Below, piece by piece: positions 18,894-63,138 of a DNA stretch of 64,000 nt. This DNA is from Escherichia phage Ec_Makalu_002. Under the pieces are notes generated by a model. That model did not search any database. It worked only from the letters and a program-made list of their open reading frames with translations, and was not told the DNA's origin. Location of the stretch: the sequence record MN709127.1, one strand, 5' to 3'. The position numbers were made by a program, and so were the translations under genes. Numbering within the stretch: position 1 is the stretch's first letter; each line of letters starts with the position of its first letter.

Positions 18894-18972
18894 TTTAAAC
18901 CTCCCATATAACAGAAAACGGGGCTAGTATAAAACTAGTCCCCGTTTGAGTCAACCATTATTTCTTAAAAAA

Positions 18973-21024
18973 TTACATTTTAAATTTATCCGGCATAGCG
19001 TCTACAGACACAAGATCAGCGATAAGCTGACGTAGAGTTGCCTTATCTGCTTTCTTACGTTCGGTTTTAGCTTCGGTAATGAAGCTGGAGAAAGACAGGT
19101 CAGAAGCAGGTTTAACAACACCTTCACGGATGAATGCATCACCGTCCGCGATCATCTCACCAGATTCTTGTAATGCTGCCAGTTCATTTTTGTTCATAAT
19201 ATGTGCCTCGATGTAATAAGTTTCTTGTGAATCCGTCGATGCCGTAGCACGAGTTACCGTATCAAAGGATAACACAACACCGCGAGGAAGTAAAATCTCG
19301 CATTCTTTGTAAGCAAATGCTTTGTTACCTACTGGCAATACAGGGATGTTTTCCGCGCCAGCAATGGAGAAAGCAACATTAGCGCCACCTTCACCGCGAG
19401 ATCCCGCCATAGAATCAACACCAGCAACGGCACTAGCCACGTTTGCATTCCAGCCACCAAAAATATTAGGTGCAAGGGAAGTGCTCACATAGTTTTTAAA
19501 GTAAAACGCTTTTTGCTTACGTGCAGTTTCCCACATTTGCGACCGGAAGTCCATACCACGATACAAGATAGTACCTGGATCAAGTTTAACACCATAGTTA
19601 GCAAATGCGTTATCCAGTGCATCACACATCTTGACCAATTCTTCTGGGTCTGCGATGCCTTCAAACTCTTCCAGCTTACGGTCGGTTAGGAAGTTGTTCA
19701 TATTGATGTATGCTGCATCCGCATATTCGCTCAACACAAAACCTTCCGCGCCAGGCAGATCAAGATCAATATCTGCCATCATTTCACCCATGTTGCTAGC
19801 AATTGCTTCAAACATACCGGAAGCAACATTACGCAGGGCATCGGTTTTAATCTGCGTGATGTGACTACGCAGCATTTCAGCTTTTACATCTGCTGGCATA
19901 GACTGGTCGACGCGATCCATTGCCAGGGCGGTGATCTTGTTTTCGAATACTTCCTCGCTCATGATTTCTTTTAAGCGTTTGATTGATGCTGCGATGACTT
20001 CCGCAGACAACGGATCATATTGATCCTGAACTTTTACCAGTTCGCTTACTGCATATTTTGCATCGGCTTCGCTTTCAAAAATAGTACGCATGAAACCATA
20101 GCGAGTGATAATATCACTTGTCCAGTCATTCAGAGAACGGGCGGTTGAACGTTCTAAGGCTTGACGGTCAATCAGAGTATTAAACTGTTTCTTAGGTTCT
20201 GCTTCGGTGATATCTTCTTCCGGTTTAAGATTAATTTTTTCTGGATGATTCACATAGTCGCTGTTATAGGTCGCTTGAGTTTTCAGCATTTCTTCTTTAG
20301 TCAAACGAGATTTAGCCGCTACGCGTTGTTCTGCTTCCGCGTTTCGTTCTTCTTCCGACACAAGACTAGCCGCATACGCCTCATCTTTAGTCAGAGATTC
20401 ACCAGTAGCCTTAGATACCCAGCGATCACCTAAATCACTTTCTACTTTAGTGAACAGGGATTCATCGAGTTTAATCCCTTTAATCTTATCAATCGCCATC
20501 CCGCGACGTTTGACAACAACTAAAGCGATCTTTTTGCTGGTCATTACTTCCTGCTGGAATACTTCAAACTTCGGTGTACGACGCACCAAACGCTCTATAA
20601 CGCGCTTAACCAGTTCGGTCTTACCTTTCATGCGGGATACGTTAAAACGGAACATAACAGCGTCTAATTGCGCTTTACGGGCTGTTTCCATGACCACATC
20701 AAAAGCACTTGACATAACTGCAATCGGGTTATCTCCTAGACCATTTTTAAGCTGTACAATACGACCGCTTTTGTTCATTTCGCACAGTACAACATGTGCG
20801 GTCTTGTCACCCATACGAATGATTTTAGGTGTTTTGTTGGTGAAGTTACAAAGACGGACAATCACATCTTTATCGCGTGTCTGTACTGCAAAAAGCTGTT
20901 TAGGATTCTGCTTAGGCTTTAAGCACTGTACCGGAGCAATACTGCCAAAGTTTTCTTCCTCTTCCGTCAACAGCCATTTCTCGAAAGATTCAATCATTAG
21001 ATCGTCGATTTCTAAGTTAAACAT
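18973..21024 (-). CDS. alt: Alt ADP-ribosyltransferase
   Basis: 683 aa; LYRGMD, YVSTSLAPNIFGGW, YKECEILLPRG; T4-like position next to gene 54. Confidence 0.85.
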   Translation of the reverse strand: MFNLEIDDLMIESFEKWLLTEEEENFGSIAPVQCLKPKQNPKQLFAVQTRDKDVIVRLCNFTNKTPKIIRMGDKTAHVVLCEMNKSGRIVQLKNGLGDNPIAVMSSAFDVVMETARKAQLDAVMFRFNVSRMKGKTELVKRVIERLVRRTPKFEVFQQEVMTSKKIALVVVKRRGMAIDKIKGIKLDESLFTKVESDLGDRWVSKATGESLTKDEAYAASLVSEEERNAEAEQRVAAKSRLTKEEMLKTQATYNSDYVNHPEKINLKPEEDITEAEPKKQFNTLIDRQALERSTARSLNDWTSDIITRYGFMRTIFESEADAKYAVSELVKVQDQYDPLSAEVIAASIKRLKEIMSEEVFENKITALAMDRVDQSMPADVKAEMLRSHITQIKTDALRNVASGMFEAIASNMGEMMADIDLDLPGAEGFVLSEYADAAYINMNNFLTDRKLEEFEGIADPEELVKMCDALDNAFANYGVKLDPGTILYRGMDFRSQMWETARKQKAFYFKNYVSTSLAPNIFGGWNANVASAVAGVDSMAGSRGEGGANVAFSIAGAENIPVLPVGNKAFAYKECEILLPRGVVLSFDTVTRATASTDSQETYYIEAHIMNKNELAALQESGEMIADGDAFIREGVVKPASDLSFSSFITEAKTERKKADKATLRQLIADLVSVDAMPDKFKM

Positions 21025-21063
21025 TTTATATCCTCTAGTTGATAACCTATAAACCTATATTTA

Positions 21064-21086
21064 TGAAAAAGGGGCTTAACACCCCC
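21064..21086 (-). terminator. rho-independent terminator ending the early small-gene unit
   Basis: Minus-strand hairpin GGGGUGUUAAGCCCC followed by U-run. Confidence 0.55.
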
Positions 21087-21091
21087 ATTTA

Positions 21092-21304
21092 TTATAATGC
21101 ACCATCGAGCAATTGCTCTAAGGTGTATCCTGAATAGTCTTTTTCAATCAGGATATATTTTCCTACTCGTTTAATACAACCGCGCATTTCAACGTATTCT
21201 GCGTAGTTGATGGTGCGAGTTGTTCCATCTTCTAGTAAAGCAGTACCGATTTCGTTAATGCGGTCATAAGTTACGTCGGTAATGATGATTTCGATGTTAG
21301 CCAT
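21092..21304 (-). CDS. hypothetical protein (70 aa)
   Basis: Track ORF with RBS, preceded by promoter cassette. Confidence 0.55.
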   Translation of the reverse strand: MANIEIIITDVTYDRINEIGTALLEDGTTRTINYAEYVEMRGCIKRVGKYILIEKDYSGYTLEQLLDGAL

Positions 21305-21340
21305 TTGATACTCCTTAGTAGTTCGTTTCGGTATGGGTGT

Positions 21341-21369
21341 ATTATGATATACACCCTCTGTTATGTCAA
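21341..21369 (-). promoter_or_regulatory. PeSL-like early promoter cassette
   Basis: Minus TTGACA-17-CATAAT; stem-loop gggtgtat-N6-atacaccc (21334-21355) covers the -10. Confidence 0.55.
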
Positions 21370-21375
21370 CAACTT

Positions 21376-21556
21376 TTAGAACATTTTTGAAATTAATTCT
21401 GCTTTGATTTCGCAGAGAACATCTAAAGATTTCTCGTCACCCGCTTTTGCTGCTTCTGCTTGCATTTTTGAAATGGCTTCAATGTCAGTGCAATTATAAG
21501 CCGCTTGAACTTTAGCGATTGCGATGATTGCCGATTCGATGGTTAAGTGTTTCATG
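21376..21556 (-). CDS. hypothetical 59-aa protein
   Basis: ATG with GGAGAA RBS; MKHLTIESAIIAIAK... Confidence 0.45.
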
Positions 21557-21587
21557 TTTGATTCTCCTTTCGTTTCGGTATGTGTGC

Positions 21588-21616
21588 AGTATAGGGGATC
21601 GCCGATCCCCTGTCAA
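21588..21616 (-). promoter_or_regulatory. PeSL-like early promoter cassette
   Basis: Minus TTGACA-17-TATACT; spacer is the palindrome aggggatcgccgatcccct (two GATC). Confidence 0.55.
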
Positions 21617-21623
21617 CAACTTT

Positions 21624-22142
21624 TTAGTTATTTTTTAATTGCTCATCTTGCAATAATGCAATCACATGCTGGCGATGTTCTTCCGATTGAGGAACACCGA
21701 AAAAGTTTGTTTTGTAGAAATACTCTAATCGGTCTTCTCGTGTGCTCTCTTCCATCATGATCGCGGGTAGTCCAAGATTTCGGAAACGTCGCTTTTCTGC
21801 TGGCGTAAAATCACTGTAATACAACATAGAATCATCATTACCAGCAATGCTAAACTCATCCTTCATAAAGGAGAATATTGCGTTTAAACGCTGTTTACCG
21901 TCCACGATTTCGATCTCATAGCGAGAGCCATCATCAATCTTAGCCATTGCGATAGCACCAACCGGAAAATCATTAATCAGGTTTTCGATAAACATACGTT
22001 TGTTTTCGGTGTCCCATACCAAAGGACGCTGATAATCTGGGTTCATGTTGATATAGCCATCTTCTAACCACGCCTCATAAACAGAGATGACAAAGTTTTT
22101 AGTATTGGTATAGTAACGGCGTTTAGGCGTTAAACGGTTCAT
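21624..22142 (-). CDS. DUF262 / ParB-like (GmrS N-terminal type) domain protein
   Basis: ATG 22142 with AGGAG RBS; DYQRPLVWD...FPVGAI...IVDGKQRLNAI matches the DUF262 signature; no C-terminal nuclease domain. Confidence 0.6.
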   Translation of the reverse strand: MNRLTPKRRYYTNTKNFVISVYEAWLEDGYINMNPDYQRPLVWDTENKRMFIENLINDFPVGAIAMAKIDDGSRYEIEIVDGKQRLNAIFSFMKDEFSIAGNDDSMLYYSDFTPAEKRRFRNLGLPAIMMEESTREDRLEYFYKTNFFGVPQSEEHRQHVIALLQDEQLKNN

Positions 22143-22143
22143 G

Positions 22144-22476
22144 TTATAGTCTCCTGAATGGATCATCACGTAAATCAATATCTTTTAAGAACTCATCCCA
22201 TGAATGGCGGATAATGTTCTTAATTCTCCAGATAAGCGCAGGGATTGAACGCTCTCCCATCTGGAAGTAAGGATCATATGATCCATATGCCCAATATGCT
22301 ACTACAATTCCACAATCGGCGCAATAATATTCTATTTCACTTGCTGGCGACCAAAGTCCATCAATATGATCACGGATCTTGCTTTCGATGTTATGGCTAT
22401 GGCAATCAGGGCAACGGATGCAATGACCTTGTTTATCGTAATTTGACGTTAGCGAATACTTAAACAATCTCATCAT
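22144..22476 (-). CDS. Zn-ribbon protein (110 aa)
   Basis: CIRCPDC ... CADCG (two CxxC pairs); stop is 1 nt before the next start. Confidence 0.55.
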   Translation of the reverse strand: MMRLFKYSLTSNYDKQGHCIRCPDCHSHNIESKIRDHIDGLWSPASEIEYYCADCGIVVAYWAYGSYDPYFQMGERSIPALIWRIKNIIRHSWDEFLKDIDLRDDPFRRL

Positions 22477-23189
22477 AGATCCTTATTGGCTTCAAATACT
22501 GCCTTTGCGAATCCTCGCGGGGTAAGTGACCTGATAGTCTTTGTTCTGGTTCCTTTCCCGCCTAGCTTAGAATGCTGTTTACTGTACCCTTTATTAATCT
22601 GCAACGGTTTCTTTTCTGGCATTATAAAGCCTTGTCCGGTCCATAAGCAAGTCTTTTTCGGGTACATATCACGGGCGGCAATATACTCAGGAAACGTAGG
22701 ATGCTTATCATCTTCCGGCAAATAACCGCCATATTCCCACGGATGGAACATGTAATCAGGCTTACGCCACATGCTAGAGATAACGCTTACAGGATTCTCT
22801 ATCATGTAGGGAACTCCTAGCCATTCACCCAAATAAGCGGTTATTTTAGCTGCCCTTACATCATGAACTTGAATTAATGGTCCTTGTTCTCGTTTCTTTC
22901 GTTCAAAGTGCGCAGCGCCACTAACAGCTAAATTGGTGCATGGTGGGAATGCAAAGATAATATCCGGTTTCCCCCATTCAAGGTCCATTGCTCTTTCCAG
23001 CCAATTTAAATCAATCCATGTGTTTACATATGTAATGTTTGGATGTTCAAATCGGGTATTATATTTTTTGTATGTACCGTGGTCGCCATCGTCAGCATTA
23101 AAGCAGATCACCTTATGACCTGCTTTAGCCCATTCTAACCCCATTATCCCCGATCCGTCAAAGTTGCAGAATATTAATTTTTGTTTCAT
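22473..23189 (-). CDS. compact C5-cytosine methyltransferase-like protein
   Basis: Motif I-like NFDGSGIMG, motif IV-like FAFPPCTNLAVSGA (PC with catalytic Cys), motif VI-like MIENPV, C-terminal RSLTPRGFAKA; only 238 aa. Confidence 0.5.
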   Translation of the reverse strand: MKQKLIFCNFDGSGIMGLEWAKAGHKVICFNADDGDHGTYKKYNTRFEHPNITYVNTWIDLNWLERAMDLEWGKPDIIFAFPPCTNLAVSGAAHFERKKREQGPLIQVHDVRAAKITAYLGEWLGVPYMIENPVSVISSMWRKPDYMFHPWEYGGYLPEDDKHPTFPEYIAARDMYPKKTCLWTGQGFIMPEKKPLQINKGYSKQHSKLGGKGTRTKTIRSLTPRGFAKAVFEANKDL

Positions 23190-23431
23190 ATACGCCCCTT
23201 TAACCCAACACAGATTTTAGAAGGTTCTTTGCCGTGCCACATTAAGTAAATTCCGTTAATGCGTCCTTGTTTTGTATATGATTCTTTTCTGATCTTCTTA
23301 TAGTGTCGTGCTTCCTCAGCCGATTGTTTAGAATGTCGATCATAAAGGAAGAGGAACAAAGGCCAACCATTAGCGGCCTTAATGCAGTTATTCAAAAATT
23401 CCTTATTTCGTTTAATTAATTTTCTTTTCAC
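23186..23431 (-). CDS. hypothetical basic protein (81 aa)
   Basis: Track ORF with overlapping stop/start in the operon. Confidence 0.5.
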   Translation of the reverse strand: MKRKLIKRNKEFLNNCIKAANGWPLFLFLYDRHSKQSAEEARHYKKIRKESYTKQGRINGIYLMWHGKEPSKICVGLKGRI

Positions 23432-23679
23432 GCTGCCCCCATTGGTTTGATAGTAACAGAATCTAAAAGACCTTTGTTAGCCAGTTCGCGGCAAGTTTTC
23501 AGATCCGCAACTTCCCAGCCAGCCGCAATAAGGTTATCAATGAGGCTGTTAGCAACTTCTTCGCTCATGAAAGAGCACTGTTTGCCGATGGTGTAGCGTA
23601 CACGCTGTAATTTCAGTTTACGGAAGCCTTTAACGTTCAGGTCTTTAGCGATTTTCTTTGCGGTTTCGATGTTAGCCAT
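23428..23679 (-). CDS. hypothetical protein (83 aa), first gene of the operon
   Basis: Track ORF; promoter cassette immediately upstream. Confidence 0.55.
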   Translation of the reverse strand: MANIETAKKIAKDLNVKGFRKLKLQRVRYTIGKQCSFMSEEVANSLIDNLIAAGWEVADLKTCRELANKGLLDSVTIKPMGAA

Positions 23680-23719
23680 TGTTTGATTCTCCTAAGTGGT
23701 ATCTCGTCTTGATGGTTGT

Positions 23720-23748
23720 ATTGTAGGGGAGTTATCCTCCCCTGTCAA
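23720..23748 (-). promoter_or_regulatory. PeSL-like early promoter for operon 23679..21624
   Basis: Minus TTGACA-17-TACAAT; palindrome aggggagttatcctcccct in the spacer. Confidence 0.5.
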
Positions 23749-23762
23749 CACTTTTTATAAAA

Positions 23763-23930
23763 TTATTTGTTAATTTCTGGTGCGTTGCTAGGATAGTAAC
23801 CTTCTTTAACTCCGAGGTATTTCGCAACCATCCCTACAATCTTCTGTGCTACTACAATGTCAAATTTCAGATAATCTTCGCCGTGGGTTTCAATGATATA
23901 TGCTTCACATGCTGCTTTAGTCTCGAACAT
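23763..23930 (-). CDS. small protein (55 aa), copy 1 of a duplicated gene
   Basis: MFETKAACEAYIIETHGEDYLKFDIVVAQKIVGMVAKYLGVKEGYYPSNAPEINK; near-identical to 27046..27213. Confidence 0.55.
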   Translation of the reverse strand: MFETKAACEAYIIETHGEDYLKFDIVVAQKIVGMVAKYLGVKEGYYPSNAPEINK

Positions 23931-23963
23931 TTTGATTCTCCTATTTCGTTTCGGTATGTGTGT

Positions 23964-23992
23964 ATTATAGGGGATCTCCCGATCCCCGTCAA
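23964..23992 (-). promoter_or_regulatory. PeSL-like early promoter cassette
   Basis: Minus TTGACG-17-TATAAT; palindrome ggggatctcccgatcccc. Confidence 0.55.
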
Positions 23993-24006
23993 CAACTTTT
24001 TTAAAA

Positions 24007-24288
24007 TTATTCGTGATTAGTTTCGATATTGTGCATTTTGCACCAGTTCAGCCAATCGCCAAGATCTTGATAGTTGATGCTTTTATCTGCTGCCATCGTT
24101 TTTGTCTTGATACCCATATGTGCGTTATGAGTAAGCATTTTTACAGTGAACTCAATTTTATCGCCTTTAGCTTTAACATCAACCAGTTTGGTCCACTGGC
24201 TACCAGCACCGCGAATGTTCATACCAACGATGTTTCCGATGTATGCTTCTTTGTTGTTCAGGATTTCGGTTGCTTTGATGAATTTCAT
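24007..24288 (-). CDS. hypothetical protein (93 aa)
   Basis: Track ORF with RBS and promoter cassette. Confidence 0.55.
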   Translation of the reverse strand: MKFIKATEILNNKEAYIGNIVGMNIRGAGSQWTKLVDVKAKGDKIEFTVKMLTHNAHMGIKTKTMAADKSINYQDLGDWLNWCKMHNIETNHE

Positions 24289-24321
24289 TTTTGATTCTCC
24301 AGTTCGTTTCGGTATGGGTGT

Positions 24322-24350
24322 ATTATGCTATGTTCTTACTTTGGTGTCAA
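24322..24350 (-). promoter_or_regulatory. PeSL-like early promoter cassette
   Basis: Minus TTGACA-17-CATAAT. Confidence 0.5.
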
Positions 24351-24358
24351 CAACTTTT

Positions 24359-24628
24359 TTAGATATTTTCAGAAATAAATTTTAAAACTTGACGTAAATG
24401 TTTCTCATCTTTGATAGTCGCCGGAAGTTCTTCTTTTACTTCCTGTGCAAGATAGATATTTCCGTTCCAAGTGAAAGACCCGTCTTCGTTTACGCGATAG
24501 CTGAACATCCATTCGCAATCATTTTCGATTTCATATACACACAGAAGGGTGTAATCTTCAAAGCTATTGATTTCAAGGTCGAAGCCGTGGCGTTTTGCAA
24601 AGTTGGTAGTGGTTTTAGTCAGTGCCAT
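24359..24628 (-). CDS. hypothetical protein (89 aa)
   Basis: Track ORF with RBS. Confidence 0.55.
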   Translation of the reverse strand: MALTKTTTNFAKRHGFDLEINSFEDYTLLCVYEIENDCEWMFSYRVNEDGSFTWNGNIYLAQEVKEELPATIKDEKHLRQVLKFISENI

Positions 24629-24668
24629 TGTTTGATTCTCCTAAGTGGTATCTCGTTTCGATGGGTGT

Positions 24669-24697
24669 ATTATGCTATAGGCGTGATCAGGTGTCAA
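24669..24697 (-). promoter_or_regulatory. PeSL-like early promoter cassette
   Basis: Minus TTGACA-17-CATAAT. Confidence 0.5.
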
Positions 24698-24721
24698 TGC
24701 CTTTTTTAAAATTTTATGCAA

Positions 24722-24747
24722 TAAAAAAGCCGACACTAAGGTCGGCT
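24722..24747 (-). terminator. rho-independent terminator
   Basis: Minus-strand hairpin gccgac-N6-gtcggc followed by U-run. Confidence 0.55.
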
Positions 24748-24754
24748 AATAAAA

Positions 24755-25063
24755 TCATTTAGACAAATAATCATTCAGTGCAATCCGGTCGGCATGTTCC
24801 GGCGTTACATCAATCGCAATCACTTTAACGCGTGCTTTCTTGCGACCTGGGTTTTCTCGTAACCAGTGCTCATGACCGTGAACATTTTTATACTGCGATG
24901 CTTCTTCGAAGGTACGGATCGGACCAGGGTAATCAGCGTAAAGGATCTCTAGGTCATCGGTGATGTAAAAATATACGTTGTAATTACTGTTCTCTAGCTT
25001 AAGCAGAGACTTTCGGAACATTGGGAGATTTTCGCGGGTAAATTCAAAAGTAATATCTTTCAT
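24755..25063 (-). CDS. HxHW family paralog A (about 102 aa)
   Basis: Internal ATG 25063 with GAGGA RBS; motifs YFYITDDL ... HGHEHWL ... VIAIDV. Confidence 0.6.
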   Translation of the reverse strand: MKDITFEFTRENLPMFRKSLLKLENSNYNVYFYITDDLEILYADYPGPIRTFEEASQYKNVHGHEHWLRENPGRKKARVKVIAIDVTPEHADRIALNDYLSK

Positions 25064-25085
25064 AGTATTATCCTCAATAGTTGGA

Positions 25086-25108
25086 TGAAAAGGGGGCTTA
25101 ACGCCCCA
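25086..25108 (-). terminator. short hairpin terminator
   Basis: Hairpin GGGGC-UUAAC-GCCCC followed by U-run on the minus strand; same type as 21064..21086. Confidence 0.45.
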
Positions 25109-25112
25109 TATA

Positions 25113-25400
25113 TTAAAACAGTCCTTCCTGTACACCGTAGTAGAGTTCGTCGCTGATAATTTCATTAATGCGACGGTGTGCATATTCCTGATTTGCGAAG
25201 TTGTCAGCAAGTTCTACTTTAGTTTCACCGTCATGAGTCCATTTAGTGATAACTTTACCATCTGCAAATTTGAAGTTGAACTCTTTAGCTACTGCATCGC
25301 GTACCAGACGTGCGAACTTGTTGTTACGGATTGCATTATCGGTTTCGTGTGCAGCGTGAGCAAATTTGTTAACTTTCAGAGTGATAGTGATGTATGCCAT
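25113..25400 (-). CDS. hypothetical protein (95 aa)
   Basis: Track ORF with RBS. Confidence 0.55.
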   Translation of the reverse strand: MAYITITLKVNKFAHAAHETDNAIRNNKFARLVRDAVAKEFNFKFADGKVITKWTHDGETKVELADNFANQEYAHRRINEIISDELYYGVQEGLF

Positions 25401-25446
25401 AATTTGATTCTCCTAGTTAGAAAGTGTATCTCGTTTCGATGGGTGT

Positions 25447-25475
25447 ATTATGCTATACACCCGATCTTATGTCAA
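25447..25475 (-). promoter_or_regulatory. PeSL-like early promoter cassette
   Basis: Minus TTGACA-17-CATAAT; stem-loop gggtgtat-N6-atacaccc (25441-25462). Confidence 0.55.
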
Positions 25476-25483
25476 CACTTTTT

Positions 25484-25762
25484 TTATAAAATAATTTTTT
25501 GATATTTTTCTATGATGTTTGTGTAATCCACATCAACCGCTATCACCGTTGCTTCGAATCCACCGTTTAGCCAATGGCTATGGTCATGATCGTGAAAGAA
25601 ACCAAGACCAGTACGAAGACCTTCTTTATATTCGGCGCGTACATTTAGATCATCATCGATAAACAGATAAAACCATGAATTTTTACTAGGATTGATGATA
25701 CAACCTTTCAGATTAGGGAGAATATCACGACTAAGAATAAACTTATCACCTACTTTGAACAT
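25484..25762 (-). CDS. HxHW family paralog B (about 92 aa)
   Basis: ATG 25762 with GAGGA RBS; FYLFIDDDL ... HDHDHSHWL ... VIAVDV. Confidence 0.6.
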   Translation of the reverse strand: MFKVGDKFILSRDILPNLKGCIINPSKNSWFYLFIDDDLNVRAEYKEGLRTGLGFFHDHDHSHWLNGGFEATVIAVDVDYTNIIEKYQKIIL

Positions 25763-25766
25763 AATA

Positions 25767-26087
25767 TTAGTCCTCACTTATAAGGTCAAACCAATTGTTT
25801 TTCGCATAATGCTTAATGCGTGCTTGATCTGCTTCCGCTGGTGATAGATTCCATGCAACCACTACAACTTCTGACGCGTCGTCATCCGTTTCTGATACCC
25901 AATGATTGTGATTCATACAGTTATTTGCGATCGAGTGAGCAAATGATTTCATCACTGGAGACGTATAATCATAGTAACGGATTTTCAGATTTTCATCAAC
26001 ATACAAGTAGATCGTATAAGGTTTATATTCAGTAACCAGTAACAGACAGTTACGCAATTCTGGGAAAATCTTTTTAGTTAATTTCAT
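25767..26087 (-). CDS. HxHW family paralog C (about 106 aa)
   Basis: ATG 26087 with GAGGA RBS; YLYVDENL ... HNHW ... VVVVAW. Confidence 0.55.
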   Translation of the reverse strand: MKLTKKIFPELRNCLLLVTEYKPYTIYLYVDENLKIRYYDYTSPVMKSFAHSIANNCMNHNHWVSETDDDASEVVVVAWNLSPAEADQARIKHYAKNNWFDLISED

Positions 26088-26088
26088 T

Positions 26089-26307
26089 TTATAATCCTCG
26101 GTCGCGGCTATAGTACACGGTACGCCATACAATTTCATGTTTCGTGTCGCTCCAGCACACGATCTCATTTACTCTTAAATCTTTGTTATCAACAAAAGAT
26201 GAACATTGTGACGCTTCTTTCATCATTTTATCTGCTGTTTTCTCATCAAATACAGCACAGATTTCTTTATACACTCGATAATCTTTGAATTGACTCTGGA
26301 TACCCAT
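26089..26307 (-). CDS. small protein, member 1 of a tandem paralog pair
   Basis: QFKDYRVYKEICAVFDEKTADKMMKEASQCSSF, homologous to the next ORF; start codon uncertain. Confidence 0.45.
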   Translation of the reverse strand: MGIQSQFKDYRVYKEICAVFDEKTADKMMKEASQCSSFVDNKDLRVNEIVCWSDTKHEIVWRTVYYSRDRGL

Positions 26308-26524
26308 AATTAACACCATTCCAACCAATTGTTTTTGAGAAAACGTTTATCCACTGTTGAGTGTAGCATGTTTCTTTCCATGATACAATACGAGTAGAAT
26401 AATGGTTTTTGTTTCCAGAAAAGGACGGGCATTTTGATGCATCTTCCATCATCTTTTCGGCGAACTCCGCGTCATATACCCGCAGGATCTGTTGATATGC
26501 TTTATAATCTTTAAATTTGCTCAT
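26267..26524 (-). CDS. small protein, member 2 of a tandem paralog pair
   Basis: MSKFKDYKAYQQILRVYDAEFAEKMMEDASKCPSF; 3' end overlaps the previous ORF. Confidence 0.5.
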   Translation of the reverse strand: MSKFKDYKAYQQILRVYDAEFAEKMMEDASKCPSFSGNKNHYSTRIVSWKETCYTQQWINVFSKTIGWNGVNYGYPESIQRLSSV

Positions 26525-26789
26525 AATTGTTAACTACCTTATCAGCTTCTTTTATTGTTTTTACATCAACTGCGATAATCCGTAAAGGTTCGTCGAAGGT
26601 CCACCAGTGGTCATGAATATCAGCTTGTGATTTATCACCAAAGGAATCACGAATATCATTTTTACATTTATAGCTAATATGGCCTTCATAGTCAACATAA
26701 AGGTAATTATCGAAAATCGGCGTTTTTAAGATCATACCGAAAAATCTTTCTTTGTGTGTCTTATCAAGTGTTGCAGTAATTCGCATCAT
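26511..26789 (-). CDS. HxHW family paralog D (92 aa)
   Basis: AGAGGAA RBS; YLYVDYEG ... HDHWW ... IIAVDV. Confidence 0.6.
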   Translation of the reverse strand: MMRITATLDKTHKERFFGMILKTPIFDNYLYVDYEGHISYKCKNDIRDSFGDKSQADIHDHWWTFDEPLRIIAVDVKTIKEADKVVNNYEQI

Positions 26790-26801
26790 AATATATTCCT
26801 C

Positions 26802-26981
26802 TTAGAAAGGGATGGTCATTTCTTGAGCTTGTACATTCTCGTTAGGATTAAACTTCATCCAACCGATATTGTCTACCAGCATATGTACATTTTTATCATA
26901 TCCTACGTGAGTAGTCAACACTAAATGTGCTTTACCTTCAACGATGATTTCCATGTACTTCTGAACTTCGATAGCTTTCAT
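26802..26981 (-). CDS. hypothetical 59-aa protein
   Basis: ATG behind a promoter cassette; below track cut-off. Confidence 0.4.
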   Translation of the reverse strand: MKAIEVQKYMEIIVEGKAHLVLTTHVGYDKNVHMLVDNIGWMKFNPNENVQAQEMTIPF

Positions 26982-27013
26982 TTTGATTCTCCGTTTGTTG
27001 TCTTGATGGGAGT

Positions 27014-27042
27014 ATCTTACTACTCCCTTTAATCATTGTCAA
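27014..27042 (-). promoter_or_regulatory. PeSL-like early promoter cassette
   Basis: Minus TTGACA-17-TAAGAT; stem-loop gggagtatcttactactccc. Confidence 0.5.
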
Positions 27043-27045
27043 CTA

Positions 27046-27213
27046 TTATTTGTTAATTTCCGGTGCGTTGCTCGGATAGTAACCTTCTTTAACACCCAGA
27101 TATTTTGCAACCATTCCGGTGATCTTCTGTGCTACTACGATATCGAATTTCAGGTAGTCTTCACCGTGGTTTGCTACAATGTATGCTTCGCATTCTGCTT
27201 TAGTCTGGAACAT
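27046..27213 (-). CDS. small protein (55 aa), copy 2 of the duplicated gene
   Basis: MFQTKAECEAYIVANHGEDYLKFDIVVAQKITGMVAKYLGVKEGYYPSNAPEINK; ATG 27213. Confidence 0.55.
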   Translation of the reverse strand: MFQTKAECEAYIVANHGEDYLKFDIVVAQKITGMVAKYLGVKEGYYPSNAPEINK

Positions 27214-27247
27214 TTTTGATTCTCCTATATCTCGTTGGTATGTGTGC

Positions 27248-27276
27248 ATTATAGGGGATCGGTGATCCCCTGTCAA
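27248..27276 (-). promoter_or_regulatory. PeSL-like early promoter cassette
   Basis: Minus TTGACA-17-TATAAT; palindrome ggggatcggtgatcccc. Confidence 0.55.
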
Positions 27277-27283
27277 CAACTTT

Positions 27284-27580
27284 TTATGATTTTTCTTTAT
27301 ATGCGTATTGAATAAATTGGTCCGCCACTTCGTCGGCTTTTTCGGGTTTGACTTCTGACGCCAGGACAATAGCTAGATCGGTTTCGTCGTTCCCGTCATA
27401 CCAATGATTATGAGTGTCTTTTTCTTTGATATAGAATGAGTCATTTGGAGTTGGACGACAATATACGTCTAAATTCTCGTCGATGTAAAAGATCCAATCT
27501 TCATAAAGAATAACCGTATTAGCAAGGTTCTTATTACCTTCAACGAAAGGTTCGGTTACAAACAAATCAGTACGTTCCAT
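27284..27580 (-). CDS. HxHW family paralog E (98 aa)
   Basis: GAGGA RBS; IFYIDENL ... HNHWY ... AIVLA. Confidence 0.55.
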   Translation of the reverse strand: MERTDLFVTEPFVEGNKNLANTVILYEDWIFYIDENLDVYCRPTPNDSFYIKEKDTHNHWYDGNDETDLAIVLASEVKPEKADEVADQFIQYAYKEKS

Positions 27581-27595
27581 AGTATTTTCCTCAAA

Positions 27596-27757
27596 TTAAG
27601 AAAAAGCGTTGAAAACAACCGCCAACACAACTACGTTAGCGATAAGGCTTAAAAAGCATTTCTTGAAACTTTCAGTGCAGATACCAATACTGGCAGGAAT
27701 TACACCGATCACGATAGCATAAAGAATAACTGCGATTTCTTGAAATACACCGTTCAT
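27596..27757 (-). CDS. small two-helix membrane protein (53 aa)
   Basis: ATG with GAGGA RBS; MNGVFQEIAVILYAIVIGVIPASIGICTESFKKCFLSLIANVVVLAVVFNAFS. Confidence 0.45.
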   Translation of the reverse strand: MNGVFQEIAVILYAIVIGVIPASIGICTESFKKCFLSLIANVVVLAVVFNAFS

Positions 27758-27814
27758 AATATTATCCTCAAAGTATGGGAGAGTGTTACCCCTCCCGATG
27801 ATTGTTATATTGCA

Positions 27815-28147
27815 TCACACAAAATGGCGTGTCAATGCTTCTTTTGCGGTTCCGCTAAGATTCTCGATCTCTCCTGGCATAACATCAACCGCCAGAACTT
27901 CTACAACATCCTCTGTTCCTAACCAGTGAGTATGACCTTTGTAGAACTTGATGCCCATATTGCCTTCTTCGTCCCATTTAACGCCCCATTTAACGTTATC
28001 ACTAGCCCACCACACATCACCGTCGATAAAGTTGATGTAAAGCACACTACGCCACATTGAATTAGTTACTTTCAATACCGCGCCTTTCATCTCTTCCACG
28101 GTGTGGTCTTCCATTTTGAAGACCTCGCCTACCTGAACTTTTGCCAT
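27815..28147 (-). CDS. HxHW family paralog F (110 aa)
   Basis: RBS GAGAGGTG; VLYINFIDGDV ... KGHTHWL ... VLAVDV. Confidence 0.6.
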   Translation of the reverse strand: MAKVQVGEVFKMEDHTVEEMKGAVLKVTNSMWRSVLYINFIDGDVWWASDNVKWGVKWDEEGNMGIKFYKGHTHWLGTEDVVEVLAVDVMPGEIENLSGTAKEALTRHFV

Positions 28148-28164
28148 TTAGTCACCTCTCTTTA

Positions 28165-28380
28165 TTACATAACAATCACGCCAGCCGTTGAAAGTTGATG
28201 TTTCAACTGAGCATTTTCTGCTACTGTCAAATCAATGATTTCTTGTGACGCTGCAATCATATAGCCATTGGTGATATTGTTTTGCATCAGTTCAATGGTT
28301 TCTTCGTTGTAGCGGATTTTAGCGATGATTTCGTTGAAGTTCATGTTTGATTCTCCTAGTTCGTTTCGGTATGTGTGCAT
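28165..28380 (-). CDS. hypothetical protein (71 aa)
   Basis: Track ORF with AGGAGAA RBS. Confidence 0.55.
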   Translation of the reverse strand: MHTYRNELGESNMNFNEIIAKIRYNEETIELMQNNITNGYMIAASQEIIDLTVAENAQLKHQLSTAGVIVM

Positions 28381-28408
28381 TATAGGGGATCTCCCGACCC
28401 CCTGTCAA
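28379..28408 (-). promoter_or_regulatory. PeSL-like early promoter cassette
   Basis: Minus TTGACA-18-TATAAT; near-palindrome ggggatctcccgaccccc. Confidence 0.55.
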
Positions 28409-28421
28409 CAACTTTTTTGAA

Positions 28422-28898
28422 TTATTTTTCTTGATGCTCGCGCTCGTACTTTTCGAAATAAAATTCTACTGGCTGATCGTGGATTGAAAGCAAGCCAAAG
28501 CGTTTAGCCGCACGTAATCCCATGTTACGTTGAATGTACTTCTGGAAGTTCTCGCGTATACACTTACGCCAGTATTCTAAGCCCATACAGCTTTTGTAAA
28601 GATTGCATTGCACACAAGCCGGATTCATGTTGTCAAGTATATCGTGCTCCGGTTTATGCATTCCTACAACCTTATACTTCCACGACCCATCATCATTACG
28701 GGCAATTCGTCCATTTTCATCATAGACTACTTTTGAGCGTCGCAATACTGGTTTGATGTGGTCTGCGTGCCAGCGATCCCCTAGTTCCTCGCCACAATAG
28801 GCACAACGTCCACCGTATTTCATTTTCAGGATCTGGCGTTGCTCTTTCTTTGACAATTTTTTAGGTTTAGGGGCTTTCGCCCCTTCATTATCACACAT
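28422..28898 (-). CDS. HNH endonuclease
   Basis: CAYCGEEL...WHADHIKP...CVQCN (His-Me finger with flanking Cys pairs). Confidence 0.7.
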   Translation of the reverse strand: MCDNEGAKAPKPKKLSKKEQRQILKMKYGGRCAYCGEELGDRWHADHIKPVLRRSKVVYDENGRIARNDDGSWKYKVVGMHKPEHDILDNMNPACVQCNLYKSCMGLEYWRKCIRENFQKYIQRNMGLRAAKRFGLLSIHDQPVEFYFEKYEREHQEK

Positions 28899-30393
28899 CG
28901 AATACCTCTTTTACTGTATTTGCAGTGGTCTTGTCGTAGCGAATACGTTTGATGATTGGGAGAAATAAAGAGAACTCCGGTTCATCTTCTTTACGTGATT
29001 TGCTGCGGATATATCCGTTGCATGTCATCTCAATGACTTTTCCAATCAGGTTATGACGGTCAGCCCATAACATTTCTCGGTCAAGTTCATTTCGACGATC
29101 GAACGGAATTACACGTTCAATACCATCATCACCTTTTTCGGTTGTGGTGTCTGTCAATCCCGATCCGGTGTTAGTCATCATTCGTCCGCACGCACTACGG
29201 ACAGTAAAACCGCCTACCTTGTTAGGTTCTTTACTGTGCGGATATACATCAACAATTTCCGCGTCGAAGTCAATCACTTCTTTAAATTTAACCTGGTCTT
29301 TACTGCGACGATCTTCAAATACACCATGTAAATTTTTAAGGATAATACCTTCTAATCCCATGTTGACATAACGATGATATACTTCGCGAGCTTCATCGAT
29401 ATTGTTAACTACAGTATTTTCGATTATCTGAACACGAGGATCGTTAAGTTCTTCAACAATCTGTTTTAGTTCTTCGAATCGATCTTTATATTGCTTCGTT
29501 GCTTTCTCGTTTCCGTAATACACATCACGGTCGATAACATCCCAGACAGTGTAAACAATACATTGGGCTTCTTCTTTTGGAATAGTTCCTTTCAGTGATT
29601 TGTTGAGGATACCATTTCCGGTCTGACGGTCTGCAACAACGGATTCTTTCACTGCTTCCGCTACTGGCGTTAATGGCATTTCCTCTTCTTCAAATATCCA
29701 TGATAGAGTACCATCATAAACGCTCTCAACGAAGTTCTGCGCTGGTGTTTGAGAAAGGGTAGGCATATATACCAACTCACCATCTAAAACAATTCCACGG
29801 CCTCGTAGACGCTCTAAAACAGCAAACAAATCATCCAGCCCCTGATAGGTATTACCTGAACGGGTATAGATTGCTAATGTTTCTCCGTCAATATCAGCCA
29901 TACCACGAGCGCCATCGCTTTTAAGTTGTGCATACGCCGGATATTTGATATTGGCAATAGTCTTATCAGAACATGACGATGCAAGGTGGCACGGCTGCTG
30001 AGGAATCAGCTTCTTCCATACCTTGTTTGCGGTGGTAGCGGAACAACCGCATTCCAGATCACGATTCAGGACCATCATTGCAACTTTAGCATCATCTTCT
30101 GACAAGCAAGTCAGAGTATCGGTAACTAGCTGTAATGCAGCATTACCAGTTACTTGACGCGTGGCAAGTTTATTTTTAAAGACCTGTAATGCACCGGATA
30201 AAGACAATACAGACGAATAGCGAGACGGTTTATCGTATTTCTTTACGCCAAACGTAACCTGCTTGCAATATGCCAGATAAAAGCATTCTTTCAGCGTTTC
30301 ATTGCTTGCAGATTCTTTCAGGATCTTTTCTTTCAGCGATGTTTTGTCAGTAGCTGCAAGCTGATTAATGATATTAAGAATTGACATTTTCAC
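28891..30393 (-). CDS. 30: ATP-dependent DNA ligase gp30
   Basis: 500 aa; adenylation motif AQLKSDGARG; overall resemblance to T4 DNA ligase. Confidence 0.9.
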   Translation of the reverse strand: MKMSILNIINQLAATDKTSLKEKILKESASNETLKECFYLAYCKQVTFGVKKYDKPSRYSSVLSLSGALQVFKNKLATRQVTGNAALQLVTDTLTCLSEDDAKVAMMVLNRDLECGCSATTANKVWKKLIPQQPCHLASSCSDKTIANIKYPAYAQLKSDGARGMADIDGETLAIYTRSGNTYQGLDDLFAVLERLRGRGIVLDGELVYMPTLSQTPAQNFVESVYDGTLSWIFEEEEMPLTPVAEAVKESVVADRQTGNGILNKSLKGTIPKEEAQCIVYTVWDVIDRDVYYGNEKATKQYKDRFEELKQIVEELNDPRVQIIENTVVNNIDEAREVYHRYVNMGLEGIILKNLHGVFEDRRSKDQVKFKEVIDFDAEIVDVYPHSKEPNKVGGFTVRSACGRMMTNTGSGLTDTTTEKGDDGIERVIPFDRRNELDREMLWADRHNLIGKVIEMTCNGYIRSKSRKEDEPEFSLFLPIIKRIRYDKTTANTVKEVFDV

Positions 30394-36236: not shown

Positions 36237-36265
36237 ATCTTACTACTCCCGTGATATGCTGTCAA
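36237..36265 (-). promoter_or_regulatory. PeSL-like early promoter cassette
   Basis: Minus TTGACA-17-TAAGAT; stem-loop gggagtatcttactactccc. Confidence 0.5.
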
Positions 36266-36461: not shown

Positions 36462-36490
36462 ATATTAATACCCCCGTTTCATGCTGTCAA
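36462..36490 (-). promoter_or_regulatory. PeSL-like early promoter cassette
   Basis: Minus TTGACA-17-TAATAT; stem-loop gggggtatattaataccccc. Confidence 0.5.
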
Positions 36491-36742: not shown

Positions 36743-36771
36743 ATCTTACAACTCCCAATATTCAGTGTCAA
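36743..36771 (-). promoter_or_regulatory. PeSL-like early promoter cassette
   Basis: Minus TTGACA-17-TAAGAT; stem-loop gggagtatcttacaactccc. Confidence 0.5.
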
Positions 36772-39285: not shown

Positions 39286-39314
39286 ATTATAGCGGGGATT
39301 TCTCCCCGCGTCAA
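39286..39314 (-). promoter_or_regulatory. PeSL-like early promoter cassette
   Basis: Minus TTGACG-17-TATAAT; palindrome gcggggatttctccccgc. Confidence 0.5.
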
Positions 39315-62601: not shown

Positions 62602-62630
62602 ATCTTACTACTCCCTTAATCCGGTGTCAA
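62602..62630 (-). promoter_or_regulatory. PeSL-like early promoter cassette
   Basis: Minus TTGACA-17-TAAGAT; stem-loop gggagtatcttactactccc. Confidence 0.5.
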
Positions 62631-62824
62631 CTACTTTTTAAATTTCTTCTACAGTAAAGTCTTCAATGTTGTTGTGCTCGGAGAACGTTGCCAGACCAGC
62701 ATTCCATGCATCATCCTCAGAGAAGAATACACCGTAACGTTCATATCCTTTAGCGCCTTCAAATTTAATCATTAATTTGTGAGTATGTTTCATTTTGATT
62801 CTCCATCGTTGTCTTGATGAGTTT

Positions 62825-62853
62825 AGTATAGGGGATCACCGATCCCCTGTCAA
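62825..62853 (-). promoter_or_regulatory. PeSL-like early promoter cassette
   Basis: Minus TTGACA-17-TATACT; palindrome ggggatcaccgatcccc. Confidence 0.55.
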
Positions 62854-63075: not shown

Positions 63076-63107
63076 GTGATTCTCCTTCTTTCGTTTCGGT
63101 GTGGGAG

Positions 63108-63138
63108 TATGTTAATACTCCCGTTTCTTTACATCAAC
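63108..63138 (-). promoter_or_regulatory. PeSL-like cassette, weaker hexamers
   Basis: Minus TTGATG; stem-loop gggagtatgttaatactccc. Confidence 0.35.

What the first reader, a model, noticed from the sequence alone, without database searches (positions are those of the whole stretch)
21593..28402. Palindromes with two GATC sites filling the promoter spacer of several cassettes
Several cassettes have a spacer that is a perfect or near-perfect palindrome of the form GGGGATC-N3/4-GATCCCC (21593-21611, 23970-23987, 27254-27270, 28385-28402, also 62831-62847). That places two Dam sites symmetrically between the -35 and -10 hexamers. A second cassette class uses GGGAGTA-N6-TACTCCC and a third GGGTGTAT-N6-ATACACCC. 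The palindromes could be operator sites for a dimeric regulator, Dam-methylation-sensitive switches, or RNA hairpins if transcription starts upstream.
Basis: seen in the sequence. Interest (0 to 1): 0.4.

Follow-up and report, generated by a model that had tools for sequence, protein, structure and literature searches.

The report
Known phage promoter-terminator cassettes (PeSLs)
The GATC-containing palindromes are the stem-loops of "PeSL" promoter/terminator cassettes already described and partly tested in RB49-like T4-type coliphages, and the two Dam sites look like a feature of one cassette subfamily, not a conserved switch.

Summary
On the coding (minus) strand, five cassettes read TTGACA-[GGGGATC-N3/4-GATCCCC]-TATAAT/TATACT, followed by a 31-34 nt leader, GGAG and ATG. 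Four of them have two GATC sites. The fifth (28379-28408) has one GATC plus a G·U wobble.

The window is a Krischvirus (RB49/phi1-like phage). These are the "promoter-early stem-loop" (PeSL) cassettes of Arbiol et al. [quoted passage not shown] RB49 PeSL206/205, shown there to be a very strong promoter, carries exactly GGGGATCGGTGATCCCC and is the ortholog of the window cassette at 27248-27276. The stem-loop they showed to terminate transcription (PeSL211/210) is a one-GATC variant.

Across 12 Krischvirus genomes:
- GATC stems are replaced at the same sites by non-GATC stems.
- Loop length varies (3 or 4 nt).
- Compensatory and G·U changes keep the pairing.

So the hairpin is conserved, not the Dam sites.

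Best reading: an RNA terminator/3'-end hairpin for the upstream gene, nested inside the next gene's sigma-70 promoter. A Dam switch or a dimer operator is not supported. Already known, low interest.

The parts
21588..21616 (-). PeSL, spacer class with two GATC: TTGACA GGGGATCggcGATCCCC TATACT. Hairpin at 21593-21611. Drives the 59-aa ORF 21376-21555.
   Evidence: The -35 box starts 7 nt after the upstream stop codon. The 61-nt RNA context folds at -16.8 kcal/mol, z -3.6.
23964..23992 (-). PeSL, spacer class with two GATC and a 4-nt loop: TTGAC[G GGGATCgggaGATCCCC] TATAAT. Hairpin at 23970-23987. Drives the 55-aa ORF 23763-23930 (phrog_8009).
   Evidence: The same spacer sequence occurs as RB49 PeSL192/191.
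27248..27276 (-). PeSL, spacer class with two GATC: TTGACA GGGGATCaccGATCCCC TATAAT. Hairpin at 27253-27271. Drives the 55-aa ORF 27046-27213 (phrog_8009, a paralog of the ORF at 23763-23930).
   Evidence: Ortholog of RB49 PeSL206/205, the experimentally tested promoter; the 47-nt segment is identical except that the loop is reverse-complemented, ACC versus GGT.
28379..28408 (-). PeSL, spacer class, imperfect: TTGACA GGGGGTCgggaGATCCCC TATAAT, with an 18-nt spacer, one GATC and one G·U pair. Drives the 59-aa ORF 28165-28344.
   Evidence: At this site 4 of 11 sister genomes carry GGGGAGGttaaaCTCCCC, which has no GATC.
62825..62853 (-). PeSL, spacer class with two GATC: TTGACA GGGGATCggtGATCCCC TATACT. 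Hairpin at 62830-62848. Drives the 51-aa ORF 62638-62793.
23720..23748 (-). PeSL, spacer class without GATC: TTGACA GGGGAGgataaCTCCCC TACAAT. Drives the 83-aa ORF 23428-23679.
   Evidence: (-19.4 kcal/mol, z -4.9). In phage JK32 the same site carries the GATC stem.
39286..39314 (-). PeSL, spacer class without GATC: TTGACG CGGGGAgaaaTCCCCG(C) TATAAT. Lies just after the stop codon of a 749-codon upstream ORF, the nrdA ortholog by position in sister genomes.
   Evidence: Invariant in the 7 genomes that cover this site.
27008..27042 (-). PeSL, -10-overlap class: TTGACA N9 GGGAGTAgtaagaTACTCCC, with the -10 box TAAGAT inside the loop and 3' arm. Further copies of this class have promoters at 36237-36265, 36462-36490, 36743-36771 and 62602-62630, and a copy with a weaker -35 box has its hairpin at 63103-63122.
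   Evidence: Covariation A-T / G·T / G-C at one stem pair.
21335..21369 (-). PeSL, -10-overlap class: GGGTGTATatcataATACACCC, with -10 box CATAAT. A second copy lies at 25441-25475.
   Evidence: Upstream of the same gene, sister genomes carry GGGGATAT...ATATCCCC (a double compensatory change). At the 21369 site, 4 of 12 genomes carry a GATC spacer hairpin instead.

Best explanation
These are PeSL cassettes (promoter-early stem-loop) of a Krischvirus. Each small early gene in the hyperplastic region is its own transcription unit. A consensus sigma-70 promoter (AT-rich tract, TTGACA, 17 nt, TATAAT) is followed by a leader of about 32 nt, GGAG and ATG.

A G/C-rich hairpin of 7-8 bp is nested in or next to that promoter, 0-14 nt plus the -35 box downstream of the previous gene's stop codon. 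In the subclass flagged here the hairpin occupies the whole -35/-10 spacer.

The hairpin is not part of the transcript started by its own promoter (inferred: the start site lies about 7 nt past the -10 box). It is transcribed only by polymerases arriving from upstream. There it forms an RNA stem-loop followed by the A/U-rich -10 sequence (UAUAAU) and terminates or attenuates read-through and caps the 3' end. This insulates each cassette.

The conserved 50-70 bp cassette also serves as a patch of homology for recombination that shuffles ORFans.

The GGGGATC...GATCCCC stem is one subfamily of cassette related by descent and gene conversion. Its two Dam sites are most likely incidental.

What is shown and what is inferred:
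- Shown elsewhere: promoter and terminator activity.
- Shown here: identity with those elements, conservation of pairing, non-conservation of GATC.
- Inferred: the RNA-level mechanism in infection.
For: (1) Identity. The window is 95-96% identical to Krischvirus genomes.

(2) Published description. Arbiol 2010 (PMC2839356) defines PeSLs with these parts and states that the stem-loop lies most commonly between -35 and -10 or over the -10 box, with about 51-52 cassettes per genome.

(3) Link to the experiments.
- RB49 PeSL206/205 is TTGACA GGGGATCGGTGATCCCC TATAAT and is orthologous to window 27248-27276. Its wild-type clone gave about 13,000 Miller units.
- The PeSL211/210 stem-loop, GGGGATCACGTATCCCC, reduced lacZ expression comparably to the rrnB T1 terminator.
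- The RB49 early-promoter consensus agrees with 5'-end mapping of early transcripts.
- The GEC-3S GenBank record annotates promoters at these intergenic positions.

(4) Anatomy. The -35 box starts 0-14 nt after the upstream stop codon in all 14 cassettes checked. The hairpins are stable, with MFE -14 to -19 kcal/mol for 61-nt contexts and z -2.0 to -4.9.

(5) Pairing is conserved, sequence is not.
- Stems are swapped at orthologous sites, e.g. GGGGAG..CTCCCC versus GGGGATC..GATCCCC.
- Compensatory changes occur: GGGTGTAT/ATACACCC versus GGGGATAT/ATATCCCC, and GGGAGTA/TACTCCC versus GGGGGTA/TACCCCC with a G·T intermediate.
- Loops vary in sequence and in length.

(6) Strand sense of imperfect pairs. 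They are mostly G·T on the coding strand: GGGGGTC variants in 4 contexts, PeSL193/192, and GGGGGTA..TACTCCC. Only one A·C was found.

(7) The same layout occurs with other stems in unrelated viral contigs. Inner stem positions are complementary far above chance: at least 3 extra pairs in 9 of 48 distinct sequences, against 0.75 expected.
Against: - The hairpins lack a canonical U-tract and are not called by a simple intrinsic-terminator scan, whereas true hairpin+T-run terminators also exist in the region, e.g. 24747-24728.
- For the -10-overlap class the tail (AUCAAGAC) is even less U-rich.
- Termination was tested by others on a single stem-loop in a plasmid reporter, not during infection.
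- The G·U versus A·C asymmetry (about 6:1) is underpowered, and the variants may not be independent events.
- Loop reverse-complement flips at orthologous sites (GGT/ACC, GGC/GCC) hint at DNA-level hairpin or inverted-repeat events, so a DNA-level role cannot be ruled out.
- The GATC stem is the commonest spacer-class stem in every genome examined. Descent explains that but does not prove it.
Confidence: 0.85

Rival explanations
1. Dam/SeqA-sensitive promoters. The two GATC sites in the spacer make this subset of early promoters respond to the methylation state of the phage DNA, for example fully methylated on entry and hemimethylated after replication, with SeqA binding or altered RNA polymerase contacts shutting them off.
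For: - Four window cassettes, and 3-5 per sister genome in this stretch, carry two GATC sites 7-8 bp apart exactly between the hexamers.
- At two sites all cassettes captured in the 12-genome census had two GATC sites: 10 of 10 at MFQTKA and 10 of 10 at MFETKA. The earlier 7-genome census did find one-GATC variants at both sites: JK32 for MFQTKA and Phi1 for MFETKA.
- Neither PeSL paper considered GATC or Dam, so the idea is untested.
Against: - The GATC sites are not in the -35 or -10 hexamers. In known Dam-controlled promoters they sit in a hexamer or in a regulator's binding site (established knowledge).
- At 3 of 7 orthologous sites, other genomes use non-GATC stems or a different hairpin class.
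- One-GATC variants are common: GGGGGTC, and GGGGATCACGTATCCCC.
- The other PeSL classes, and PeSLs of other T4-like phages, have no GATC.
- A two-GATC cassette is very strong in DH5alpha, a dam+ strain (my knowledge).
- GATC is not enriched or avoided genome-wide.
Confidence: 0.05
2. Protein-binding palindrome in duplex DNA. The inverted repeat would be an operator for a dimeric phage early regulator, or the recognition site of a recombination or nuclease protein that promotes cassette shuffling.
For: - It is a perfect inverted repeat with conserved arms and a variable centre.
- Arbiol 2010 speculated that GGGG...CCCC could be the target of a DNA-binding recombination protein.
- Loop flips (GGT/ACC, GGC/GCC) between orthologs suggest DNA-level events at the palindrome.
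Against: - Arm spacing varies by 1 bp (3- or 4-nt loops) at the same site, and the arm sequences are exchanged (ATC/GAT versus AGG/CCT). A sequence-specific dimer would not tolerate this.
- Substitutions are compensatory or G·U, which points to selection on pairing.
- In the other classes the hairpin sits at a different position relative to the promoter.
- No candidate regulator was identified. The small downstream ORFs have no Pfam domain.
Confidence: 0.07
3. Pure hitch-hiking repeat. The palindrome has no function of its own and is just part of a repeated linker sequence spread by recombination.
For: The cassettes form subfamilies with shared flanks, such as ..TATAAT(G/A)CACACATACCGAAACGA... 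Two of them drive paralogous genes. Mosaic cassettes show recombination inside the element.
Against: - Pairing is preserved through compensatory changes, and independent stem sequences occur at the same position.
- The same hairpin-in-spacer layout, with unrelated stems, occurs in unrelated phage contigs.
- Terminator activity has been published.
Confidence: 0.03

Closest known systems
PeSL (promoter-early stem-loop) cassettes of coliphages RB49 and phi1 (Arbiol, Comeau, Kutateladze, Adamia & Krisch 2010, Genome Biol Evol 2:140; PMC2839356)
   Same: - Same genus, and the same loci (orthologs of RB49 ORFs 185-212).
- Same parts: AT-rich tract, sigma-70 -35 and -10 boxes, GN-loop-CN stem-loop, SD, ATG.
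[quoted passage not shown]
   Different: Nothing essential. The window differs only in which stem variant sits at which site, e.g. loop ACC versus GGT at the 206/205 ortholog. The published main texts searched do not mention that the commonest spacer stem contains two GATC sites.
PeSLs of other T4-like phages (PST/T4 and nt-1/KVP40 pairs; Comeau, Arbiol & Krisch 2014; PMC4122927)
   Same: Composite promoter plus stem-loop cassettes that flank variable ORFs and mark indel and replacement junctions.
   Different: The stems differ (A3-4G3-loop-C3T3-4 in nt-1; AGNA-loop-TCNT in PST), and in PST they lie just upstream of the promoter, not in the spacer. None of those consensus stems contains GATC.
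Rho-independent (intrinsic) terminators
   Same: A G/C-rich 7-8 bp hairpin with a short loop, directly downstream of a stop codon. One member reduced downstream lacZ expression comparably to the rrnB T1 terminator.
   Different: There is no run of U. The tail is the -10 box (UAUAAU/UAUACU) or AUCAAGA, so these fail the usual sequence definition.
Dam-regulated promoters (IS10 transposase pIN, pap, agn43, Mu mom; from established knowledge)
   Same: GATC sites within a promoter region.
   Different: In those systems the GATC lies in a hexamer or in a regulator's binding site and is conserved. Here the sites lie in the spacer, inside a hairpin, and are replaceable.
Coliphage N4 early promoters (a DNA hairpin recognised by the virion RNA polymerase; from established knowledge)
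   Same: A short-stem, 3-nt-loop hairpin embedded in a phage early promoter.
   Different: The N4 hairpin is the promoter for a phage RNA polymerase, extruded from supercoiled DNA. Here the promoter is an ordinary sigma-70 consensus, and the hairpin varies in position relative to it.

Membership tests
PeSL cassette (Arbiol et al. 2010) | Lies in an intergenic gap of a hyperplastic region of a T4-type phage, immediately upstream of a small ORF(an). | tested here: met
   The window is a Krischvirus. The cassettes sit between small minus-strand ORFs in the alt-to-ligase region, which is syntenic with RB49 ORFs 185-212.
PeSL cassette (Arbiol et al. 2010) | Sigma-70 consensus -35 and -10 boxes, preceded by an AT-rich tract. 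| tested here: met
   TTGACA/TTGACG + 17-18 nt + TATAAT/TATACT, scoring 11-12 of 12, preceded by AAAAAGTTG.
PeSL cassette (Arbiol et al. 2010) | Stable stem-loop with polyG...polyC arms, in one of five positions that include between -35 and -10. | tested here: met
   7-8 bp stems of the form GGGG(ATC)...(GAT)CCCC fill the spacer. Predicted folds are -14 to -19 kcal/mol with z -2 to -4.9.
PeSL cassette (Arbiol et al. 2010) | Shine-Dalgarno sequence and start codon of the downstream gene at the 3' end. | tested here: met
   GGAG, then 6-8 nt, then ATG, lying 31-46 nt after the -10 box in all 14 cassettes checked.
PeSL cassette (Arbiol et al. 2010) | Repeated many times per genome. | tested here: met
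   At least 15 hairpin-bearing cassettes occur in this 64-kb window. The paper reports 51-52 per genome.
PeSL cassette (Arbiol et al. 2010) | Promoter activity and terminator activity. | not testable with these tools
   These activities are reported for RB49 PeSL206/205 (promoter) and for the PeSL211/210 stem-loop (terminator). Both belong to this GATC subfamily, and 206/205 is the ortholog of window 27248-27276.
PeSL cassette (Arbiol et al. 2010) | Marks junctions of insertion, deletion or replacement between related phages. | tested here: met
   Whole stem classes and leaders are exchanged at the same sites among 12 genomes. Mosaic cassettes occur, and gene content differs between genomes at cassette boundaries.
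Intrinsic terminator | G/C-rich hairpin directly followed by a U-rich tract (at least 5 T in 8). | tested here: not met
   The scan finds canonical terminators elsewhere in the region but none of the spacer-class hairpins. Their tail is TATAAT/TATACT.
Dam-regulated promoter | GATC within a hexamer or a regulator's binding site, and conserved at orthologous promoters. | tested here: not met
   The GATC sites lie at about -26/-23 and -19/-16, inside the spacer (sequence). They are replaced by non-GATC stems at 3 of 7 orthologous sites, and one-GATC variants occur.
Operator for a dimeric DNA-binding protein | Fixed half-site sequence and fixed spacing. | tested here: not met
   3-nt and 4-nt loops occur at the same site, the arm sequence is swapped, and changes are compensatory.

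The most novel reading that the evidence does not exclude
The paired GATC sites are not incidental. In the commonest spacer-class cassettes they would couple early-promoter strength, or hairpin/cruciform formation and recombination at the cassette, to the Dam methylation state of the phage DNA. One route would be SeqA binding to hemimethylated sites after replication begins, giving a host-methylation-dependent shut-off of a subset of early ORFan genes. No paper found here has looked at this.
Probability: 0.05. Interest if true: 0.5.

Novelty: already known. Interest (0 to 1): 0.12.

Why it matters
It matters little as a discovery. The element, its layout (stem-loop inside the promoter spacer), its promoter and terminator activities and its role in modular shuffling were published in 2010 for the same phage genus.

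This check adds three things:
- It ties the flagged sequences directly to the experimentally tested RB49 cassettes.
- It shows that pairing, not GATC, is conserved across 12 genomes.
- It notes that the GATC content has never been examined experimentally. A dam+/dam- reporter comparison would settle that cheaply.

Tried and rejected
- Rfam over 20500-29500 gave only a sub-threshold snoRNA chance hit.
- The simple terminator scan does not call the spacer hairpins.
- The G·U versus A·C strand-asymmetry test, meant to separate an RNA role from a DNA role, gave about 6 against 1. That is suggestive but underpowered, and the events may not be independent.
- A single formal covariation run over all classes was not possible, because the classes pair in different registers. 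Pairs were tabulated by script instead.
- Pfam found nothing for the small downstream ORFs, so no stem class could be matched to a gene function. PHROGs showed only that two of these ORFs are paralogs.
- The supplement of Arbiol 2010, with the PeSL list and Fig. S1, is not held.
- Whether Krischvirus encodes its own Dam was not determined. The review searched does not mention it. The methyltransferase-like ORF next to the cassettes has C5-cytosine-type motifs, not Dam-type.
- GATC enrichment or avoidance in the window was rejected: observed/expected is 1.05.

Full report
**1. Observation**

The genes between about 18 kb and 50 kb, and again from 60 kb to 64 kb, lie on the minus strand. The motif therefore has to be read as its reverse complement. 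Read that way, each flagged site is TTGACA (or TTGACG), then a 17-nt spacer GGGGATC-N3-GATCCCC, then TATAAT or TATACT. Next come a leader of 31-34 nt, GGAG, and an ATG.

The exact pattern GGGGATC-N3/4-GATCCCC occurs four times (21594, 23970, 27254, 62831), against none in 100 shuffles. It has an 18-nt spacer, a single GATC and a G·U-type pair.

GGGAGTA-N6-TACTCCC and GGGTGTAT-N6-ATACACCC do not fill the spacer; they overlap the -10 box. GATC itself is neither enriched nor avoided in the window: 351 observed against 334 expected.

**2. What the window is**

The region is 95-96% identical to many Krischvirus genomes, that is RB49/phi1/JSE-like T4-type coliphages. It is syntenic with RB49 ORFs 182-246, running from alt through the ligase, nrdA/B, td and frd to gene 32.

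**3. What the element is**

Arbiol et al. 2010 (PMC2839356) described repeated "promoter-early stem-loop" (PeSL) cassettes in exactly these phages. Their description includes:
- an AT-rich tract, sigma-70 -35 and -10 boxes, a stable stem-loop that often has polyG/polyC arms, an SD and a start codon;
- five subclasses defined by stem-loop position, the commonest being between -35 and -10 or overlapping the -10 box;
- 51-52 cassettes per genome, mostly in the hyperplastic regions upstream of ORFans.

I extracted the three cassettes they tested from RB49:
- **PeSL206/205** is TTGACA GGGGATCGGTGATCCCC TATAAT. It is the ortholog of window 27248-27276, with the same downstream 55-aa gene and identical flanks; only the loop differs, ACC against GGT. 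Its wild-type clone gave about 13,000 Miller units, and most clones of the tested PeSLs picked up -35 or -10 mutations because the promoter was too strong.
- **PeSL211/210**, whose stem-loop reduced lacZ expression comparably to the rrnB T1 terminator, is GGGGATCACGTATCCCC. This is the same subfamily with the second GATC lost.
- **PeSL193/192** belongs to the -10-overlap class.

Two further points support promoter function. Nolan et al. 2006 report that the RB49 early-promoter consensus agrees with 5'-end mapping of early transcripts. The GEC-3S GenBank record annotates promoters at these intergenic positions.

**4. Is GATC or the hairpin the conserved thing?**

I compared the alt-to-ligase stretch of 12 Krischvirus genomes and grouped cassettes by the downstream gene.

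Cassettes at the same site carry different stems in different genomes:
- **59-aa MNFNEI gene (window 28408):** six genomes have two-GATC stems with loops ACC, GCC, GGT or GGGA. Four have GGGGAGGttaaaCTCCCC, with no GATC. The window has the one-GATC G·U variant.
- **83-aa MANIET gene (window 23748):** eleven genomes have GGGGAG...CTCCCC stems and one has the GATC stem.
- **70-aa MANIEI gene (window 21369):** eight genomes have the -10-overlap hairpin and four have a GATC spacer hairpin.

Within the classes there are clean compensatory changes:
- GGGTGTAT/ATACACCC against GGGGATAT/ATATCCCC upstream of the same gene.
- GGGAGTA/TACTCCC against GGGGGTA/TACCCCC, with the G·T intermediate GGGGGTA/TACTCCC also present.

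Loop length (3 or 4 nt) varies at a single site, so the spacing of the two arms is not fixed.

Imperfect pairs are mostly G·T on the coding strand. The GGGGGTC variant occurs in four contexts, and PeSL193/192 and GGGGGTA/TACTCCC add two more, against one A·C pair. This fits an RNA hairpin in the sense transcript but is too few events to be decisive.

Two of the window's GATC cassettes drive paralogous 55-aa genes (phrog_8009). The GATC cassettes also share their leader sequence. The subfamily is therefore related by duplication and gene conversion.

**5. Anatomy and mechanism**

In all 14 cassettes checked, the -35 box begins 0-14 nt after the stop codon of the upstream ORF. The hairpin thus sits at the 3' end of the upstream gene and, by ordinary sigma-70 geometry, just upstream of its own promoter's start site (inference).

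The hairpins are stable. Minimum free energy is -14 to -19 kcal/mol for 61-nt contexts, with z -2.0 to -4.9. They lack a U-run, because their 3' tail is the -10 box itself (UAUAAU). A simple terminator scan therefore does not call them, although it does find canonical terminators nearby.

The best-supported reading is the published one. The hairpin is a terminator/attenuator and 3'-end structure for transcripts arriving from upstream, packed inside the next promoter so that each ORFan cassette is transcriptionally insulated. The conserved cassette also serves as a homology patch for modular shuffling.

**6.

*Dam switch.*
- The GATC sites are in the spacer, not in a hexamer.
- They are replaceable at orthologous sites.
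- They are absent from the other PeSL classes and from PeSLs of other T4-like phages.
- A two-GATC cassette is extremely active in DH5alpha, a dam+ strain (my knowledge).
- Neither PeSL paper mentions GATC, Dam or, in connection with the PeSLs, methylation. The idea is untested, not disproved. I give it about 5%.

*Dimer operator.* Variable arm spacing, swapped arm sequences and compensatory changes argue against it. The 2010 authors did speculate about a GGGG...CCCC-binding recombination protein. Loop reverse-complement flips between orthologs (GGT/ACC, GGC/GCC) show that something happens at the DNA level, either inversion at the palindrome or gene conversion between cassettes.

**7. Wider context**

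A scan of IMG/VR for TTGACA-GGGG-N9/10-CCCC-TA found the same layout in many unrelated viral contigs, with other inner stems such as AGATTATCT, GCATAATGC and GCTTCCAGC. Inner positions were complementary far above chance: at least 3 extra pairs in 9 of 48 distinct sequences, against 0.75 expected. One such contig, with two such promoters in 3.8 kb, is related to the ~350-kb Munch/7t3-like jumbo phages. Hairpin-in-spacer sigma-70 promoters are thus a more general phage design, again without GATC.

**8. Verdict**

The feature is already known as the RB49/phi1 PeSL cassette, including this exact sequence. The only unpublished nuance is that the commonest spacer stem contains two Dam sites. The comparative evidence says this is incidental. 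Interest is low.

Noticed in passing
window 22476-23189 (-), next to 21627-22178 (-): The 238-aa ORF matches phrog_757 'DNA methyltransferase', has no Pfam hit, and carries FDGSG, FPPC and ENP motifs typical of C5-cytosine methyltransferases. It sits beside a 184-aa ORF with a GmrSD_N (DUF262) domain. A 2026 paper (PMC13390438) reports that the Krischvirus SAP has glucosylated methyl-dC, that the nearly identical TB34 has canonical cytosine, and that the responsible genes are unknown. This methyltransferase-like ORF could be relevant. In one search the best SAP and TB34 matches start only at window position 23763, downstream of this ORF.
   Followed up: partly
window 27253-27271 versus RB49 L086 (PeSL206/205); window 21593-21611 versus SFHK24 L087:17410: Between orthologous or paralogous cassettes with identical arms, the 3-nt loop is exactly reverse-complemented (ACC/GGT, GGC/GCC). 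That amounts to three simultaneous substitutions equal to an inversion. It suggests hairpin or inverted-repeat-mediated loop flipping, or gene conversion between cassettes.
   Followed up: partly
IMG/VR loci L001-L085, e.g. L029:1468-2230, L008:3102-3126, L021:4003-4027: The layout TTGACA-GGGG(stem-loop)CCCC-TATAAT occurs in many unrelated viral contigs with different inner stems. These include a 366-kb contig related to the Salmonella jumbo phages 7t3/Munch (two copies in 3.8 kb) and a recurrent family of freshwater phages of about 35 kb. Hairpin-in-spacer sigma-70 promoters seem to be a broader phage design than the T4-like PeSL literature covers.
   Followed up: partly
window 23763-23930 (-) and 27046-27213 (-): Two 55-aa ORFs of unknown function are paralogs (both phrog_8009). 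Each lies behind a GATC-class cassette with a near-identical leader, so gene and cassette were duplicated together.
   Followed up: partly
window 18926-18954 (-), upstream of the ORF starting MFKKLQ, near alt: This promoter-associated hairpin, GGGACTAGttttataCTAGCCCC, has an A·C mismatch on the coding strand in all 11 genomes in which it was detected. It is the only antisense-type wobble found among the cassettes. It may not be a functional hairpin, or it may act on the other strand.
   Followed up: no
window 24728-24747 (-), 21070-21086 (-), 25093-25107 (-): Canonical hairpin+T-run terminators (e.g. AGCCGACcttagtGTCGGCT TTTTTATT) coexist with the PeSL hairpins in the same hyperplastic region. 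The phage therefore uses both ordinary terminators and promoter-embedded hairpins.
   Followed up: no
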